DNA of 64,000 bases from Enterobacteria phage XTG1: sequence record KT184316.1; one strand, given 5' to 3'. A program made the translations under genes and the position numbers. The notes beneath the pieces were generated by a model that searched no databases, was not told where the DNA came from, and saw only the letters and a program-made list of their open reading frames with translations. Positions 1 to 7,233 of this stretch are shown here, piece after piece (the stretch's first letter is position 1; every line of letters begins with the position of its first letter).

Positions 1-22
1 CTCCAACAGAGACCAAATTAAT

Positions 23-97
23 GTTCCAGTAGACAAAACGGTAAAGTCACCACTCTTTCAAAGTGGATATTTGAGGGTTCAAATCCCTTCTGGAACG
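23..97 (+). tRNA. tRNA-Glu (anticodon TTC)
   Basis: Manual cloverleaf: acceptor gttccag/ctggaac, anticodon loop ctttcaa, T-loop ttcaaat, CCA follows. Confidence 0.7.
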
Positions 98-192
98 CCA
101 GTTTTGACAGAAGACCAATTACAGCAAACTTAATCTTATTCATCTGAAGGTAAATCGGACAAAGAAGAGATTTGGTCTGGTCATTAAGAATT

Positions 193-264
193 GCGGGTAT
201 AGAGAAAGGGCGTCTCACATGTCTCATTAGCATGGTATCGGCAGGTTCGACTCCTGCACCCGCC
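193..264 (+). tRNA. tRNA with CAT anticodon (Met or Ile2), slightly atypical
   Basis: Acceptor gcgggt/acccgc, D-stem gaga/tctc, anticodon loop ctcatta, T-arm gcagg-ttcgact-cctgc; position 37 is T. Confidence 0.5.
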
Positions 265-347
265 TCCAATTTTGCAGAAGACCGTTTACAGCAACAAAAT
301 ACTTTTTGCGGATAAAAGAAAAAAAACACGGTCTGGCAATGTATTAA

Positions 348-421
348 GGTTAGGAAGCACATAAGGTATGTGCGGTCGCCTGTTAAGCGAATGGCACAGG
401 GTTCGAATCCCTGACTAACCG
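348..421 (+). tRNA. tRNA-Asn (anticodon GTT)
   Basis: Acceptor ggttagg/actaacc, D-stem gcac/gtgc, anticodon loop ctgttaa, T-arm caggg-ttcgaat-ccctg, CCA encoded. Confidence 0.7.
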
Positions 422-432
422 CCAAATTAAAT

Positions 433-517
433 GTGTCGTTATCCCGTAGATGGTAGCGGTGGGGACTGTAAATCCCTTGTCATTGAGACTCGGTAGGTTC
501 GACTCCTACACGGCACA
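433..517 (+). tRNA. tRNA-Tyr (anticodon GTA), long variable arm
   Basis: 85 nt; anticodon stem-loop gggga-ctgtaaa-tccct; T-arm gtagg-ttcgact-cctac; CCA encoded. Confidence 0.65.
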
Positions 518-526
518 CCAAATAAA

Positions 527-601
527 GGTTATGTAGTTTAATCTGGTTAAAATACTCCCCTGTCACGGGAGATGATGAGGGTTCAAATCCCTTCGTAACC
601 G
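527..601 (+). tRNA. tRNA-Asp (anticodon GTC)
   Basis: Acceptor ggttatg/cgtaacc, anticodon stem-loop ctccc-ctgtcac-gggag, T-arm gaggg-ttcaaat-ccctt, CCA encoded. Confidence 0.7.
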
Positions 602-840
602 CCAAATTATAATAAGTATTTCAAAATGATGTTTGAGAGGGCTATTTTAGCCCCTCCCTTAAAGAGTTCTTACGAGTATTCTTTAAAGGAGCAGAAGACC
701 AAATTCAGCAAGTACGTATGATATTTTCAAGCCAATTTAATTTTGAAAAAATTTATAAAACTTGGTCTGGCTCAACAATTTTACAGAAGACCGTTTACAG
801 CAAAACTTAAACAATCTATTTCTCCGGTAAAGAAAAGGCG

Positions 841-884
841 AAGGTTCGATTCCTTCACTCGGCAGATGTCGAGTTGGTGTAATG
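841..884 (+). pseudogene. tRNA-like fragments in permuted order (3' half directly followed by a 5' half); possible pseudo-tRNA or split/permuted tRNA
   Basis: aaggttcgattcctt-cactcggca (T-arm plus 3' acceptor strand) lies 3 nt upstream of gtcgagt-tg-gtgtaatggtagcac (5' acceptor strand plus D-arm); the two acceptor strands are complementary; no complete cloverleaf found. Confidence 0.3.
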
Positions 885-917
885 GTAGCACTTAAGATGA
901 TAAACAACGGTCTGGTA

Positions 918-1059
918 ATTATCTTTGTAGATAAGTTATTAAGCTTACCTGTGAGTATGCGACCACAAAGGGTGAAAGGGTAAATTCTAGATTTAAACCC
1001 AAAAAGGCACATCGCTACAGACCTTAAGCAAGTCTGGGTAGCTTATCTACAAAGATAAT
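918..1059 (+). ncRNA. Long hairpin element closed by an 18-bp perfect inverted repeat; candidate small structured RNA in the tRNA cluster
   Basis: attatctttgtagataag at 918-935 is the exact reverse complement of cttatctacaaagataat at 1042-1059; 106-nt interior. Confidence 0.35.
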
Positions 1060-1065
1060 TTAATG

Positions 1066-1137
1066 GAAGTGTAGCAGAATGGTGATGCGGCAGACTTTTA
1101 ATCTGACAGGCGATGGGTTCGAATCCCTCCACTTCTA
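1066..1137 (+). tRNA. tRNA-Lys (anticodon TTT)
   Basis: Acceptor ggaagtg/cacttct, anticodon loop cttttaa, T-loop ttcgaat, CCA encoded. Confidence 0.6.
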
Positions 1138-1369: not shown

Positions 1370-1387
1370 CCAATTTCAATAAAGTTG

Positions 1388-1416
1388 TTGACATTGAGAT
1401 GTGACTACTTTATAGT
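1388..1416 (+). promoter_or_regulatory. Sigma70-like promoter (TTGACA, 17-bp spacer, TATAGT) inside the tRNA cluster
   Basis: ttgaca at 1388-1393, 17-nt spacer, tatagt at 1411-1416. Confidence 0.5.
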
Positions 1417-1618
1417 AACCTTAGTTTTCGTTGCGTAGCGTCTATTTTGCAAATTTAAAATAAATGCAAACGACAATGTTTTTCTGGCAGTAGCTTGATA
1501 GGCTAAACACCAGTGAGGTCTTCCAATCCCTCATCAAAGAATTTGGCGTACTCGCCCACGGTATGATTAATAAGGTGGGCATCTTTAAGGGCTTTCTAAG
1601 AGAGTCTTTAAAGATAAT

Positions 1619-1837: not shown

Positions 1838-1917
1838 ATGGGACGATGTTAAGACTCTAAGGCATGAGCAACGGCCTCCAAAACCGTTTCAAAGGGGTTC
1901 AACTCCTCCGTCCCATG
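1838..1917 (+). tRNA. Atypical tRNA-like gene, possibly tRNA-Trp (anticodon CCA) with an extended D region
   Basis: Perfect acceptor atgggac/gtcccat, T-loop ttcaact, GCCA after; loop ctccaaa on stem acgg/ccgt; about 7 extra nt between acceptor and anticodon stem. Confidence 0.4.
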
Positions 1918-1933
1918 CCAAAGTCTTATTAGG

Positions 1934-5631: not shown

Positions 5632-7233
5632 ATGGACTTAAATGCTGTTAAGCAGAAGCGAGTGGAAGATGTTAGGAAAGTCCTAGCTGGAGAGTTGGGG
5701 CTTTCTGATGAAGTAAAAGAAATTATCAAATCATTTGGTAAAGACCCCTCTAAATTCCTTCCAACTCAAATTCTGACTTTATTAAGATACACACCAGACC
5801 AAGTTCGCCTTATCTTTAAATTGATGACTGATAAGAACTATGTAGCCCCTCAGCCGGGTTCTCAAGAGGTCTTTTTAAATACTAATGCTGACTTGGTTCT
5901 TTATGGTGGTGCTGCTGGTGCTGGTAAAACTGCTGCATTGTTAATGGACTCTTTAAGATTTATTGAAGACCCTAACTATAATGCTGTATATTTCCGTCGA
6001 AATACAACACAGCTACAAGGTGGTTTATGGCCTGCTGCAAAGAAACTATTTGGTAAGTTTGGTGGGGTTCCTCACGAGCAGAAGATGACTATCACATTCC
6101 CTTCTGGGGCAACTATCAAGTTCACCTACCTAGAACTTGAAAAACACGCTGAAGGTCATCAGGGTATTGAATACTCAGCTATTTACTTTGACGAAGGTAC
6201 ACACTTCTCTGCTTCACAGATTTCATACCTACAAACACGTCTGCGTTCTGGTGCTGAAGGTGATTCATACATGAAGATTTCCATGAACCCAGACAGAGAC
6301 CACTTTATTTATGATTGGGTAGAGCCATTCTTAGATGAAGAAGGTTATCCAGACCCTGAAAAGTGTGGTCGTATTCGTTGGTATGTAATGAATGACGGTG
6401 TGATGGTTTCTGATTGGGAGAGAGACAAGATTCTTGAAATGTTCCCTCTTGAGATTCCTCAAACCTACACCTTTATCTCTGGTACGATTGATGATAACCC
6501 CATCCTTGACTTCTTAGAGCCTAAGTACCGTGGTAAGTTGGAAAACAACACCCCTGTAAACGTTGCAAGACTTCGTTTCGGTAACTGGAAGGCTCGTGCA
6601 GAAGGTTCAAACTATTGGCAAAGACAATGGTGTGAAATTGTTGATTCACTCCCAGAAGATGTATTCGATGTTAGAGCATGGGACTTAGCAGCAACTTTAC
6701 CATCTGAGATTAACCCTAATCCAGACTGGACAGCAGGTGTTAAGATGGGTAAATCTAAAAAAGACGGTTGCTATTATATCATTGATGTAGTAAGATTTAG
6801 AGATAGACCCTCTGGAGTCGAAACACAAATTAATTTGACTGCTGAAAGTGACGGTAAGCGAACTGGTATTTTTATCCCTCAAGACCCAGGCGCTGCTGGT
6901 AAATCCTACGCAACATCCCTCATCAGGAAACTTGCCGAGAAAGGTTATCGAGCAAGAGCTAAACCAACAAATAAAGATAAAGTTACCCGCTTTGCGGGAT
7001 TTTCTGCTGCTTCTGAAGCTGGACTTGTAAAAGTCTTGAGAGGTAGTTGGAATGAAGCTTACTTCCAAGAGCTTGAAGGCTTTTGTGGTGATGGTAAAAC
7101 TAAAGATGACCAAGTGGATGCTACCAGTGATGCTTTCAACAGTCTTAACGAAGTTAAATTATTCAAGCCACCATCAATGGGTGCTCACACAGACTTAGTG
7201 AGAGGAAACCCATATGAGGGGCTTAGACGTTGA
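5632..7233 (+). CDS. Terminase large subunit
   Basis: Walker A-like LYGGAAGAGKT near N-terminus, about 530 aa, followed by portal; start set at ATG 5632 with GGAGG RBS (track start 5617 is non-ATG). Confidence 0.8.
   Translation: MDLNAVKQKRVEDVRKVLAGELGLSDEVKEIIKSFGKDPSKFLPTQILTLLRYTPDQVRLIFKLMTDKNYVAPQPGSQEVFLNTNADLVLYGGAAGAGKTAALLMDSLRFIEDPNYNAVYFRRNTTQLQGGLWPAAKKLFGKFGGVPHEQKMTITFPSGATIKFTYLELEKHAEGHQGIEYSAIYFDEGTHFSASQISYLQTRLRSGAEGDSYMKISMNPDRDHFIYDWVEPFLDEEGYPDPEKCGRIRWYVMNDGVMVSDWERDKILEMFPLEIPQTYTFISGTIDDNPILDFLEPKYRGKLENNTPVNVARLRFGNWKARAEGSNYWQRQWCEIVDSLPEDVFDVRAWDLAATLPSEINPNPDWTAGVKMGKSKKDGCYYIIDVVRFRDRPSGVETQINLTAESDGKRTGIFIPQDPGAAGKSYATSLIRKLAEKGYRARAKPTNKDKVTRFAGFSAASEAGLVKVLRGSWNEAYFQELEGFCGDGKTKDDQVDATSDAFNSLNEVKLFKPPSMGAHTDLVRGNPYEGLRR

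What the first reader, a model, noticed from the sequence alone, without database searches (positions are those of the whole stretch)
100..920. Conserved spacer stem motif CAGAAGACC(NN)TTACAGCAA ... (NN)GGTCTGG with covarying bases, four copies
Four tRNA spacers carry the same element: 106-180, 275-336, 690-771 and 783-916. Each starts with CAGAAGACC + 2 nt + T/ATTNCAGCAA and ends 40-110 nt later with the complementary 2 nt + GGTCTGG. The two variable positions covary (AA with TT, GT with AC), which argues for a conserved RNA helix rather than chance. A related copy is at 2718-2740 (ctgaagaccgtaacaaa) with gaggtc/gacctc arms. These could be processing signals or small regulatory RNAs.
Basis: seen in the sequence. 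Interest (0 to 1): 0.45.

Follow-up and report, generated by a model that had tools for sequence, protein, structure and literature searches.

The report
Y-RNA-like small RNAs beside phage Ro60-like gene
The four repeated "spacer stems" in this phage's tRNA cluster are genes for small structured RNAs of a widespread, apparently undescribed family. The family always sits next to a Ro60-like protein gene (DUF2828), so it is probably that protein's RNA partner, and it looks strikingly like the "Class I" RNAs of social amoebae.

Summary
Four elements (105-183, 272-339, 689-773, 781-918, + strand) share a covarying terminal helix followed by an invariant single-stranded box (U/A)N(A/U)CAGCAA. The fifth copy proposed at 2718 is not a member.

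The window is a Felixounavirus, 99.6% identical to phage KhF3. The gene just upstream of window position 1 encodes a 471-aa DUF2828/DUF7788 protein with a Ro60-like fold.

The same RNA module lies beside DUF2828 genes in unrelated phages of Klebsiella, Aeromonas, Campylobacter, Listeria and Mycobacterium. It also lies beside them in 41 of 75 viral-metagenome loci and 48 of 80 bacterial or archaeal genome loci. All 134 covariance-model hits are on the gene's strand, against 0 hits in 920 kb of control viral DNA. Every helix pair covaries.

Long forms, including E4, carry a circularly permuted tRNA-like body (T arm, closed acceptor hairpin, D arm), as in bacterial YrlA Y RNAs.

Best explanation: these are Y-RNA-like partners of a divergent Ro60-like protein, released from the tRNA precursor by tRNA processing. 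They use an ACAGCAA box instead of the canonical CGAA motif. Binding itself is inferred, not shown.

The conserved features match Dictyostelium Class I RNAs, which are thought to be unique to dictyostelids. That link is untested.

The parts
105..183 (+). E1, short-form RNA between tRNA-Glu and tRNA-Met. Outer helix 105-108/180-183, AGA loop 109-111 opposite G179, inner helix 112-118/172-178, box TTACAGCAA 119-127, variable hairpin body.
   Evidence: The family model R1 scores it 33.5 bits (E 1e-4 over 148 kb; 4e-6 locally), and it was not in the training set.
272..339 (+). E2, short-form RNA between tRNA-Met and tRNA-Asn. Outer helix 272-275/336-339, AGA 276-278 opposite G335, inner helix 279-285/328-334, box TTACAGCAA 286-294.
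   Evidence: R1 scores it 44.5 bits, but it was one of the 34 training sequences. Rfam Dicty_Class_I_RNA scores it 26.5 bits (gathering score 41.5), aligned stem-to-stem and box-to-box.
689..773 (+). E3, short-form RNA. Outer helix 689-692/770-773, AGA 693-695 opposite G769, inner helix 696-702/762-768, box ATTCAGCAA 703-711. The internal hairpin UUUUCAAGCC...UUUUGAAAA is conserved in Moogle- and Suspvirus.
   Evidence: R1 scores it 31.3 bits (E 3.5e-4), and it was not in the training set.
781..918 (+). E4, long form. Outer helix 781-784/915-918, AGA 785-787 opposite G914, inner helix 788-794/907-913, box TTACAGCAA 795-803, and a permuted tRNA-like body.
   Evidence: The model aligns only its 5' part because of the ~70-nt body. 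Rfam tRNA gives a partial match at 807-857 (22 bits).
819..891 (+). tRNA-like body of E4. Anticodon-like arm 819-835 (TTTCT CCGGTAA AGAAA), T arm 840-856 (GAAGG TTCGATT CCTTC), closed acceptor-like hairpin 857-874 (ACTCGGC AGAT GTCGAGT), linker TG, D arm 877-891 (GTGT AATGGTA GCAC).
   Evidence: The acceptor-like hairpin covaries among orthologs: ACTCGGC/GTCGAGT here, ACACGT/GCGTGT in SUSP2, ACCCTTC/GAAGGGT in Moogle. The same order (T arm, hairpin, D arm) is found in the long forms of Klebsiella, Mycobacterium and two viral-metagenome (IMG/VR) phages. ARAGORN calls no tRNA here.
23..424 (+). Context: tRNA-Glu (23-100), tRNA-Met (192-268) and tRNA-Asn (348-424) flank E1 and E2. tRNA end-processing would release the spacers as discrete RNAs (inferred).
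   Evidence: for the tRNAs. There is no + strand promoter-like site in 1-1100. Two sigma-70-like promoters lie between the DUF2828 stop codon and tRNA-Pro in KhF3 (L001 1292-1412, i.e. about 90-210 nt upstream of window position 1).

Best explanation
E1-E4 are four genes for small non-coding RNAs of a phage- and bacteria-wide family. They work like Y RNAs for a divergent Ro60-like protein.

Anatomy. The 5' and 3' ends of each RNA pair into a 7-bp helix: A-U, G-C, then five freely covarying pairs. In Ounavirinae this helix is extended by an AGA/G internal loop and a 4-bp outer helix. An invariant unpaired box, (U/A)N(A/U)CAGCAA, follows the 5' strand directly, and a conserved (C)UG follows the 3' strand. 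The body is variable: a small hairpin in E1-E3, and a circularly permuted tRNA-like domain (T arm, closed acceptor hairpin, D arm) in E4.

What is shown: the anatomy, the covariation, and the strict strand-specific linkage to genes of the DUF2828/DUF7788 family. That family has a Ro60 (HEAT-repeat ring plus vWA domain) fold. In this phage its gene ends 228 nt upstream of window position 1.

What is inferred: (i) the RNAs are co-transcribed with the tRNAs from promoters just downstream of the DUF2828 gene and are released by RNase P and 3' tRNA processing; (ii) helix plus box is the binding site of the Ro60-like protein; (iii) the variable or tRNA-like bodies tether or gate the ring protein towards host RNA-metabolism factors. 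The models for (iii) are Ro60/Y RNA/PNPase and the RtcB or Rnl2 RNA-repair neighbours seen in other phages. The system would contribute to RNA (tRNA) surveillance or counter-defence, since the Bas63 homolog gp130 counters the Ppl defence system.
For: Anatomy and covariation in the window and in Ounavirinae.

Protein. It matches Pfam DUF2828 plus DUF7788 and PHROG 850 'RNA-binding protein'. An AlphaFold model (pLDDT 89) has only Ro60/TROVE chains as its top 9 PDB matches (E 8e-8 to 7.5e-6, TM 0.52-0.64). Bas63 gp130 is reported as Ro60-like, sits upstream of the tRNAs, and counters Ppl (PMC11482910).

Linkage. The module sits next to the homologous gene in Klebsiella FBKp34, Aeromonas LAh_6, Campylobacter CP81, Listeria LP-083-2 and Mycobacterium Lolly9. 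A strict descriptor finds 51 hits on the gene strand against 2 on the opposite strand in 75 viral-metagenome (IMG/VR) DUF2828 loci, and 0 and 1 in 1.0 Mb of control loci. Covariance model R1 finds 56 hits in 41 of 75 viral-metagenome loci and 78 hits in 48 of 80 bacterial or archaeal loci, all on the gene strand, and 0 hits in 920 kb of controls.

Independent test alignment. 99.2% of cells are paired, 7 of 7 pairs carry double changes, and the box C-A-G-C-A-A is present in 50-53 of 53 sequences.

Other support. E1 and E3 are recognised by a model built almost wholly from other phages. Long forms have T arm, hairpin and D arm in 8 phages. Two of them score 38-40 bits on Rfam YrlA. The Erwinia relative phiEa104 has neither the gene at the corresponding position nor the RNAs.
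Against: There is no direct evidence of expression, of RNA ends, or of RNA-protein binding. The protein shows no sequence-level similarity to TROVE or Ro60 (Pfam at E<=10 and a PDB profile search both negative), so the Ro60 analogy rests on fold alone. The canonical Ro-binding motif (GNCGAA / GGUCCGA on the 5' strand) is absent. E4 does not hit Rfam YrlA at all. About 40% of DUF2828 loci gave no model hit; some are truncated contigs, and long or divergent forms are missed. Adjacency is equally compatible with cis-regulatory elements of the DUF2828 mRNA.
Confidence: 0.75

Rival explanations
1. Cis-regulatory elements of the DUF2828 gene. The modules would be protein-binding operators in the 5' or 3' UTR of the DUF2828 mRNA (autoregulation), not free-standing RNAs.
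For: In most bacterial or archaeal genome loci, and many viral ones, the modules lie 0-1 kb upstream of the gene on the same strand. In Aeromonas LAh_6 the last module ends immediately before the ribosome-binding site and start codon.
Against: In this window the four copies lie 330-1150 nt downstream of the gene, interleaved with tRNAs and behind separate promoters. Copies are often multiple (up to 7-8) and include tRNA-like bodies. In other loci they lie downstream of the gene (Klebsiella, Mycobacterium). The closed-ends architecture is typical of stable small RNAs. The two readings are not mutually exclusive.
Confidence: 0.1
2. tRNA-precursor processing signals. The helices would be RNase III/E-type recognition structures that guide cutting of the polycistronic tRNA transcript.
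For: E1 and E2 occupy tRNA spacers, and the outer helix brings the spacer ends together.
Against: Most spacers in this 25-tRNA array lack the element. E3 and E4 are adjacent to each other, not between tRNAs. In other phages the modules occur in tandem with no tRNAs between them and follow the DUF2828 gene. An invariant unpaired box and a tRNA-like body are not needed for a cleavage signal.
Confidence: 0.04
3. Protein-independent tRNA mimics or decoys, or RNAs whose ACAGCAA box base-pairs with a host RNA, with only coincidental linkage to DUF2828.
For: E4 and other long forms mimic tRNA. Phage tRNA arrays are known counter-measures to tRNA-targeting defences (general knowledge).
Against: Short forms (E1-E3 and most family members) have no tRNA-like part; 0 of 26 carry GTTCRA. 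The box is invariant across hosts from Actinobacteria to Campylobacter, Clostridia and an archaeal MAG. That fits a co-inherited protein partner better than a host RNA target. Linkage to DUF2828 is near-exclusive.
Confidence: 0.08
4. A selfish repeated DNA element (miniature inverted-repeat or REP-like), or chance repeats arising from duplication of spacers.
For: Four copies within 820 bp, with terminal inverted repeats.
Against: Stems covary while the asymmetric box stays invariant. Orientation is strictly that of the neighbouring gene (134 of 134 model hits). The element is conserved across phyla with unrelated stem sequences.
Confidence: 0.02

Closest known systems
Bacterial and phage Y RNAs (YrlA/YrlB, Rfam RF02553) with Ro60/Rsr (Chen et al. 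2014, PMC4201824; Thermus phage phiLo Ro60-Yrl, PMC12135203)
   Same: The RNAs are encoded next to a ring-shaped HEAT-plus-vWA protein. The 5' and 3' ends pair into a terminal helix that carries the conserved module. A short form (like YrlB) and a long form coexist. The long form's body is T arm, closed acceptor-like hairpin, D arm, which is the YrlA order. Relatives' long forms score 38-40 bits on the YrlA model. RtcB or Rnl2 genes lie nearby in some phages.
   Different: The protein is DUF2828/DUF7788, not TROVE; it is Ro60-like by fold only. The conserved RNA motif is an unpaired (U)UACAGCAA box 3' of the 5' strand plus a 3' (C)UG. It is not GNCGAA / CGAA / GGUCCGA. Scores are below the Rfam gathering score (69), and E4 gets no YrlA hit.
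Dictyostelium Class I RNAs (Rfam RF01414; Kjellin et al. 2021, PMC7919456)
   Same: Point-for-point the same conserved features. Both have a short terminal stem whose sequence varies but whose first pair is G-C. Both have a 5' AAG start and a 3' CUG(U) end. The box (CC)UUACAGCAA sits immediately after the 5' strand, with the same most-conserved positions (C..C-A-A). Both have a variable A/U-rich body, a typical size of 45-65 nt, and many paralogous copies. RF01414 is the only non-tRNA Rfam family that hits the modules. It does so in three unrelated phages, and only at module coordinates.
   Different: Scores of 20-30 bits are below the gathering score of 41.5. The linker is one nucleotide shorter. 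The phage RNAs have no DUSE promoter and sit in operons or tRNA arrays. Class I RNAs are reported as unique to Dictyostelia and are known to bind the RRM protein Rnp1A. Whether Dictyostelium has a DUF2828 protein could not be tested here.
Metazoan Y RNAs / nematode sbRNAs
   Same: Terminal helix formed by both ends, bulged or internal-loop helix, partner of a Ro60-fold protein, variable loop that recruits other factors.
   Different: Different conserved helix sequence, RNA polymerase III genes, no tRNA-like body, canonical TROVE protein.
Permuted / two-piece tRNA-like RNAs (permuted tmRNA; permuted tRNA genes of Cyanidioschyzon) - from general knowledge
   Same: E4 has the 3' half (T arm, acceptor 3' strand) upstream of the 5' half (acceptor 5' strand, D arm).
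   Different: The acceptor stem is closed by a 4-nt loop with no CCA in this phage. There is no credible anticodon (position 33 is C). No tag reading frame and no bulge-helix-bulge (BHB) splicing motif. ARAGORN calls neither a tRNA nor a tmRNA.

Membership tests
Y RNA / YrlA-YrlB (Ro60-associated RNAs) | Encoded adjacent to a Ro60 (TROVE-domain) gene | tested here: inconclusive
   The adjacent gene has a Ro60-like fold (Foldseek E 8e-8 to 7.5e-6, TM 0.52-0.64). It matches Pfam DUF2828/DUF7788, not TROVE, even at E<=10. A PDB profile search finds no Ro60.
Y RNA / YrlA-YrlB (Ro60-associated RNAs) | Terminal helix formed by the 5' and 3' ends | tested here: met
   7-bp helix with full covariation.
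Y RNA / YrlA-YrlB (Ro60-associated RNAs) | Conserved Ro-binding motif GNCGAAN0-1G / CGAA / GGUCCGA in the 5' strand | tested here: not met
   The motif is absent. The conserved element is the unpaired CAGCAA box after the 5' strand. Motif definition taken from PMC4201824 and PMC12135203.
Y RNA / YrlA-YrlB (Ro60-associated RNAs) | tRNA-like domain in the order T arm - acceptor-like stem-loop - D arm (YrlA) | tested here: met
   Met for E4 only. E1-E3 lack it, as YrlB does.
Y RNA / YrlA-YrlB (Ro60-associated RNAs) | Score at or above the Rfam RF02553 gathering score (69 bits) | tested here: not met
   No YrlA hit in window 95-1070 at E<=10. Related long forms in Klebsiella and Mycobacterium phages score 39.6 and 37.7 bits.
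Y RNA / YrlA-YrlB (Ro60-associated RNAs) | Physical association with the Ro60 protein | not testable with these tools
   Needs RIP/CLIP or gel-shift assays.
Dictyostelium Class I RNA (RF01414) | About 6-bp terminal stem, variable in sequence, with a conserved 5' G | tested here: met
   Inner helix GACCNN/NNGGUC begins with G-C; across the family the first stem position is G in 33 of 34 (training set) and 34 of 53 (test set).
Dictyostelium Class I RNA (RF01414) | 11-nt motif CCUUACAGCAA adjacent to the 5' strand of the stem | tested here: met
   UUACAGCAA is identical in E1, E2 and E4; E3 has AUUCAGCAA. It is directly adjacent to the stem. The linker is 1 nt shorter than in the Rfam consensus.
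Dictyostelium Class I RNA (RF01414) | Conserved ends AAG... and ...CUGU | tested here: met
   Window copies read AGAAG...CUGG. The family consensus is uaAAG...CUGu. The Dictyostelium ends are taken from PMC7919456.
Dictyostelium Class I RNA (RF01414) | Score at or above the Rfam gathering score (41.5 bits); length 42-65 nt | tested here: not met
   E2 scores 26.5 bits; E1 scores 19.7 bits in one run and 13.3 in another. Lengths here are 68-138 nt including the outer helix, although many family members elsewhere are 45-65 nt.
Dictyostelium Class I RNA (RF01414) | DUSE promoter about 60 nt upstream; restricted to Dictyostelia | tested here: not met
   This is a bacteriophage locus inside a tRNA operon.
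tRNA | Cloverleaf with open acceptor stem, anticodon loop with U33, detected by ARAGORN or Rfam above threshold | tested here: not met
   ARAGORN calls nothing in 605-1064. Rfam tRNA gives a 22-bit partial match, below the gathering score of 29. E4 is permuted, with a closed acceptor hairpin.

The most novel reading that the evidence does not exclude
The phage and bacterial ACAGCAA-box RNAs and the Class I RNAs of dictyostelid amoebae would be one ancient RNA family: the dedicated partner of DUF2828/DUF7788 Ro60-like proteins. Those proteins also occur in giant viruses of protists and in plants. That would define a second Ro/Y-type ribonucleoprotein lineage spanning phages, bacteria, an archaeal MAG, giant viruses and eukaryotes. 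It would also give the orphan Class I RNAs, which are implicated in Dictyostelium development, a candidate protein partner and biochemical function.
Probability: 0.35. Interest if true: 0.92.

Novelty: new variant of a known kind. Interest (0 to 1): 0.8.

Why it matters
First, it gives a domain-of-unknown-function protein family a concrete, testable RNA partner. That family is present in at least 709 sequenced phages and in many bacterial genomes. One member already has a counter-defence phenotype (Bas63 gp130 against Ppl).

Second, it defines an RNA family absent from Rfam 15, with unusually clean covariation and an invariant box. That makes it suitable for immediate biochemical and structural work.

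Third, it shows that Ro60-type ribonucleoproteins are more diverse than the TROVE / CGAA-motif paradigm.

Fourth, it corrects annotation. These spacers are unannotated, or overlapped by spurious 'hypothetical protein' calls, in hundreds of Felix O1-like genomes used in phage therapy and biocontrol.

Fifth, if the Dictyostelium link holds, a 20-year-old orphan RNA class becomes mechanistically approachable.

Tried and rejected
- My first motif pattern was off by one base and missed the true copies. It was corrected.
- The exact-pattern scan of viral contigs returned mostly chance single matches. Only Felix-like contigs had the closing strand. Those chance loci were reused as a 0.92-1.0 Mb negative control.
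- A single-sequence AlphaFold run gave an unusable model (pLDDT 45). It was redone with a 68-sequence alignment.
- The AlphaFold-database fold libraries (afdb50, afdb_sample) were not available. I therefore could not list eukaryotic DUF2828 homologs or check Dictyostelium.
- Avesson et al. 2011 (Class I RNA pull-down proteins), two Wolin-lab Y RNA reviews (Sim et al. 2020; Sim and Wolin 2018) and Aspegren et al. 2004 are not held. The supplements of Chen et al. 2014 are not held either.
- Literature searches for DUF2828, PF11443 and the box sequence found nothing relevant.
- Hypotheses considered and rejected:
  - Hammerhead, hairpin or HDV-like ribozymes: no Rfam hit.
  - Kink-turn: no tandem G-A pairs.
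  - Bulge-helix-bulge splicing motif: the geometry does not fit.
  - Type IIS restriction-site artefact (GAAGAC): the second site is not a BbsI site.
  - Type III toxin-antitoxin or CRISPR-like array: the repeats are not identical and the neighbouring protein is not a nuclease.
  - Genuine permuted tRNA gene for E4: closed 4-nt loop, no CCA, C at position 33.
- A column-wise pair count on the long-form alignment A4 was abandoned because MAFFT shifted the 3' strand by one column. It was replaced by per-sequence checks.
Full report
WHAT THE WINDOW IS

The first 6 kb are 99.6% identical to Enterobacteria phage KhF3 (genus Felixounavirus), and 405 phage records match the region. The window opens inside the phage's tRNA array; ARAGORN finds 25 tRNAs, all on the + strand. 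The finding lies in the non-tRNA stretches of the first kilobase.

CHECKING THE OBSERVATION

CAGAAGACC-N5-CAGCAA occurs exactly four times in 64 kb, at 108, 275, 692 and 784, all on the + strand. Shuffles expect 0.16 matches even with two mismatches allowed. Each copy is closed by NN'GGTCTGG. The two variable stem bases are complementary in every copy.

Outside the 7-bp helix AGACCNN/NNGGUCU, and across an AGA/G internal loop, a further 4-bp helix forms. Its sequence differs in each copy: UGAC/GUCA, UUGC/GCAA, GAGC/GCUC, UUAC/GUAA. It forms in 34 of 34 distinct instances collected from Felixouna-, Moogle- and Suspvirus genomes. Orthologs of E2 switch between UUGC/GCAA and UUAC/GUAA.

The proposed fifth copy at 2718 has no CAGCAA box and gets no match on its strand from the family model, even with filters off; only two weak reverse-strand matches (E 2.7 and 4.5) fall nearby.

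THE NEIGHBOURING GENE

In every relative, the gene immediately upstream of the array encodes a conserved 471-aa protein. In KhF3 it ends 228 nt before window position 1 and is on the same strand.

- It matches Pfam DUF2828 and DUF7788 and PHROG 850 'RNA-binding protein'.
- Other genomes annotate it as 'Ro-like RNA binding protein' or 'vWFA protein'.
- An AlphaFold model built on 68 homologs (pLDDT 89, pTM 0.88) has Ro60/TROVE chains as its nine best PDB matches (E 8e-8 to 7.5e-6, TM 0.52-0.64). Only vWA domains follow.
- At sequence level nothing links it to TROVE. It is a distinct family with a Ro60-like fold.
- A preprint on the Felixounavirus Bas63 reports that the homolog gp130 is structurally Ro60-like and counters the Ppl defence system. 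It speculates that 'some tRNA genes ... are possibly Y RNAs' but does not identify any (PMC11482910).
- tblastn finds the protein in 709 phage records from hosts as different as Mycobacterium, Listeria, Staphylococcus, Campylobacter and Vibrio. BFVD adds giant viruses of protists.

THE SAME RNA MODULE FOLLOWS THIS GENE EVERYWHERE

I read the DNA next to the homologous gene in unrelated phages. Each has the same design: a 6-7-bp helix of arbitrary sequence, immediately followed by (U/A)N(A/U)CAGCAA, and closed by the complementary strand plus UG.

- Klebsiella FBKp34: three copies just downstream of the gene and a sigma-70-like promoter.
- Campylobacter CP81: two copies just upstream.
- Aeromonas LAh_6: seven to eight copies upstream.
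- Listeria LP-083-2: three copies upstream.
- Mycobacterium phage Lolly9: three copies downstream.

I then quantified the linkage.

- A strict descriptor was used: a perfect 6-bp stem starting with G, then 3 nt, then CAGCAA, then the closing strand followed by TG. In 75 viral-metagenome (IMG/VR) loci centred on DUF2828 homologs (38-47% identity) it gave 51 hits on the gene's strand and 2 on the other. In 1.0 Mb of control viral loci it gave 0 and 1.
- A covariance model (R1) was built from 34 short forms, 33 of them from other phages. It gave 56 hits in 41 of those 75 loci, all on the gene strand. It gave none in 920 kb of controls.
- R1 gave 78 hits in 48 of 80 bacterial or archaeal genome contigs that carry a homolog, again all on the gene strand and mostly within 1 kb upstream.
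- In the window, R1 recognises E1 (33.5 bits) and E3 (31.3 bits), neither of which was in its training set. It also recognises E2 (44.5 bits). The only other match in 64 kb is a single chance-level one (E 0.9).
- The Erwinia relative phiEa104 lacks the gene at this position and has no module.

COVARIATION

The training alignment was selected for pairing, so its statistics are biased. The A-U pair just outside the selected stem was not selected for, and it is still AU 30 / UA 2 / GC 1 / other 1.

The cleaner test is the 53 model hits from genome contigs, none of which was used in training.

- 99.2% of cells are paired, against 35-42% when the partner columns are slid.
- All 7 pairs carry double-sided changes (132 cells).
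- 0 of 500 shuffles reach the observed covariation score.
- The box letters C, A, G, C, A, A are present in 53, 52, 53, 53, 53 and 50 of the 53 sequences. The G after the 3' strand is present in 52 of 53.

E4 AND THE LONG FORMS

The interior of E4 reads as follows:

- anticodon-like arm, 819-835;
- T arm GAAGG-TTCGATT-CCTTC, 840-856;
- a 7-bp hairpin ACTCGGC-AGAT-GTCGAGT, 857-874, in the place of the acceptor stem;
- linker TG;
- D arm GTGT-AATGGTA-GCAC, 877-891.

This is a circularly permuted tRNA whose acceptor end is closed. Its 'anticodon side' opens into the family helix. The hairpin covaries among orthologs: ACACGT/GCGTGT in SUSP2 and ACCCTTC/GAAGGGT in Moogle. The same order of parts, with unrelated hairpin sequences, is found in the long forms of Klebsiella, Mycobacterium and two viral-metagenome (IMG/VR) phages.

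This is the architecture described for bacterial YrlA (PMC4201824). The Klebsiella and Mycobacterium long forms score 39.6 and 37.7 bits on Rfam YrlA, below its threshold of 69. E4 itself does not hit YrlA. Short and long forms together recall the YrlB/YrlA pair.

HOW IT MOST LIKELY WORKS

Shown: the anatomy, the covariation and the linkage.

Inferred:

- Two sigma-70-like promoters sit between the DUF2828 stop codon and tRNA-Pro, and there is none on the + strand in window 1-1100. The RNAs are therefore probably made as part of the tRNA precursor and freed by RNase P and 3' trimming of the flanking tRNAs.
- The helix with its conserved A-U and G-C pairs, the A/G juxtaposition next to it, the 3' UG and the unpaired ACAGCAA box together form the binding site of the Ro60-like protein.
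- The variable or tRNA-like bodies gate the protein or tether it to other factors. Precedents are Ro60/Y RNA/PNPase in bacteria and the Thermus phage Ro60-Yrl-PNPase complex (PMC12135203).
- Neighbouring RtcB and Rnl2 genes in other phages and the Ppl phenotype of gp130 point to RNA repair, RNA surveillance or counter-defence.

The main rival is that the modules act in cis on the DUF2828 mRNA. This fits loci where they abut the start codon. It does not fit this window, where they are interleaved with tRNAs downstream of the gene.

COMPARISON WITH WHAT IS KNOWN

The system works like a Ro60/Y RNA pair, but it fails the membership tests for that family. The protein is not TROVE, the CGAA-type motif is absent, and Rfam scores are sub-threshold.

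The only other Rfam family that touches the elements is Dictyostelium Class I RNA (RF01414). It hits E2 at 26.5 bits, E1 at 19.7, two Klebsiella copies at 25.2 and 23.6, and two Aeromonas copies at 29.6 and 28.0. Every hit is at module coordinates and aligned stem-to-stem and box-to-box.

The published description of Class I RNAs is: a 6-bp terminal stem of variable sequence with a conserved first G; an AAG start and a CUGU end; an 11-nt box CCUUACAGCAA right after the 5' strand, with C6, C9, A10 and A11 most conserved; a variable remainder; 42-65 nt; many copies (PMC7919456). This matches the consensus of the phage and bacterial family (uaAAG-N5-UUACAGCAA...N5-C-UGu) feature by feature.

Class I RNAs are currently regarded as unique to dictyostelids. 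Their only confirmed direct binder is the RRM protein Rnp1A. I could not test whether Dictyostelium encodes a DUF2828 protein, because the fold library was unavailable and the key paper is not held. The scores are below Rfam's threshold. The link is therefore a lead, not a result.

NOVELTY AND VERDICT

I found no description of this RNA family. There is no Rfam 15 model other than the sub-threshold Dictyostelium one, and nothing turned up in the literature searches. I rate it a new variant of a known kind: a Y-RNA-like partner for a divergent Ro60-like protein. The evidence for the RNA family and its linkage is very strong. The evidence for binding is indirect. There is also a high-value open question about Class I RNAs.

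Noticed in passing
window 1373-1618 (tag frame about 1464-1499): The spacer between tRNA-Ile and tRNA-Arg holds a strong sigma-70-like promoter (TTGACA-N17-TATAGT, 1388-1416). It also holds a reading frame GCA AAC GAC AAT GTT TTT CTG GCA GTA GCT TGA TAG, which translates to ANDNVFLAVA**. This closely resembles a tmRNA tag (E. coli ANDENYALAA). Rfam gives weak tmRNA and permuted-tmRNA hits (E 0.003-0.004), but ARAGORN calls no tmRNA. The stretch 1457-1552 is 75-80% conserved in unrelated Klebsiella and Salmonella phages. It may be a phage tmRNA-like RNA.
   Followed up: partly
window 918-1061: Directly after E4 there is an approximately 19-bp perfect inverted repeat (AATTATCTTTGTAGATAAG ... CTTATCTACAAAGATAATT) enclosing about 105 nt. 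This could be another structured RNA in the array. It was seen only by eye in the sequence.
   Followed up: no
window 1840-1920: A tRNA-like sequence ending in CCA that ARAGORN does not call. Rfam gives only a 23-bit tRNA-Sec-model match. It may be an aberrant or pseudo tRNA.
   Followed up: no
It is a separate, unusually stable hairpin (-29.4 kcal/mol, z = -3.8) between tRNA-Thr and tRNA-Val. It is not a member of the ACAGCAA-box family, and its function is unknown.
   Followed up: partly
L132 1429-1980 (Listeria phage LP-083-2): A ROOL RNA match (87 bits, E 3e-16, just under the gathering score of 99) lies about 1 kb upstream of the DUF2828 gene and its three modules. An RtcB ligase gene lies 1.3 kb downstream. 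This is a dense cluster of RNA-biology genes.
   Followed up: no
L129 1494-1610 (Aeromonas LAh_6); L127 6003-6116 and 5826-5912 (Klebsiella FBKp34): These are tRNA genes or tRNA-like sequences with insertions of about 40 nt. The Aeromonas one carries CCUUACAGCAA inside the insertion, and the Klebsiella sequence at 5826-5912 carries AUACAGCAA in a D-loop-like position. The box therefore also occurs embedded in tRNA-shaped RNAs of normal topology.
   Followed up: no
L122 about 2571-2592 (Moogle E4 ortholog); L202 5796-5916 and 8485-8605: In these long forms the loop of the acceptor-like hairpin begins with N-CCA (G-CCA, A-CCA, C-CCA), like an encoded tRNA 3' end. RNase P cleavage, as reported for M. 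smegmatis YrlA, would give a two-piece tRNA-like RNA with a CCA end. The window's E4 has no CCA.
   Followed up: no
L001 / many GenBank Felixounavirus records: E1, E3 and E4 are unannotated, or overlapped by short 'hypothetical protein' CDS calls, in numerous deposited genomes. Examples are rows with 'hypothetical protein' under the match, and SUSP2 gp132 at L123 1919-2089. These are probably mis-annotations of RNA genes.
   Followed up: no
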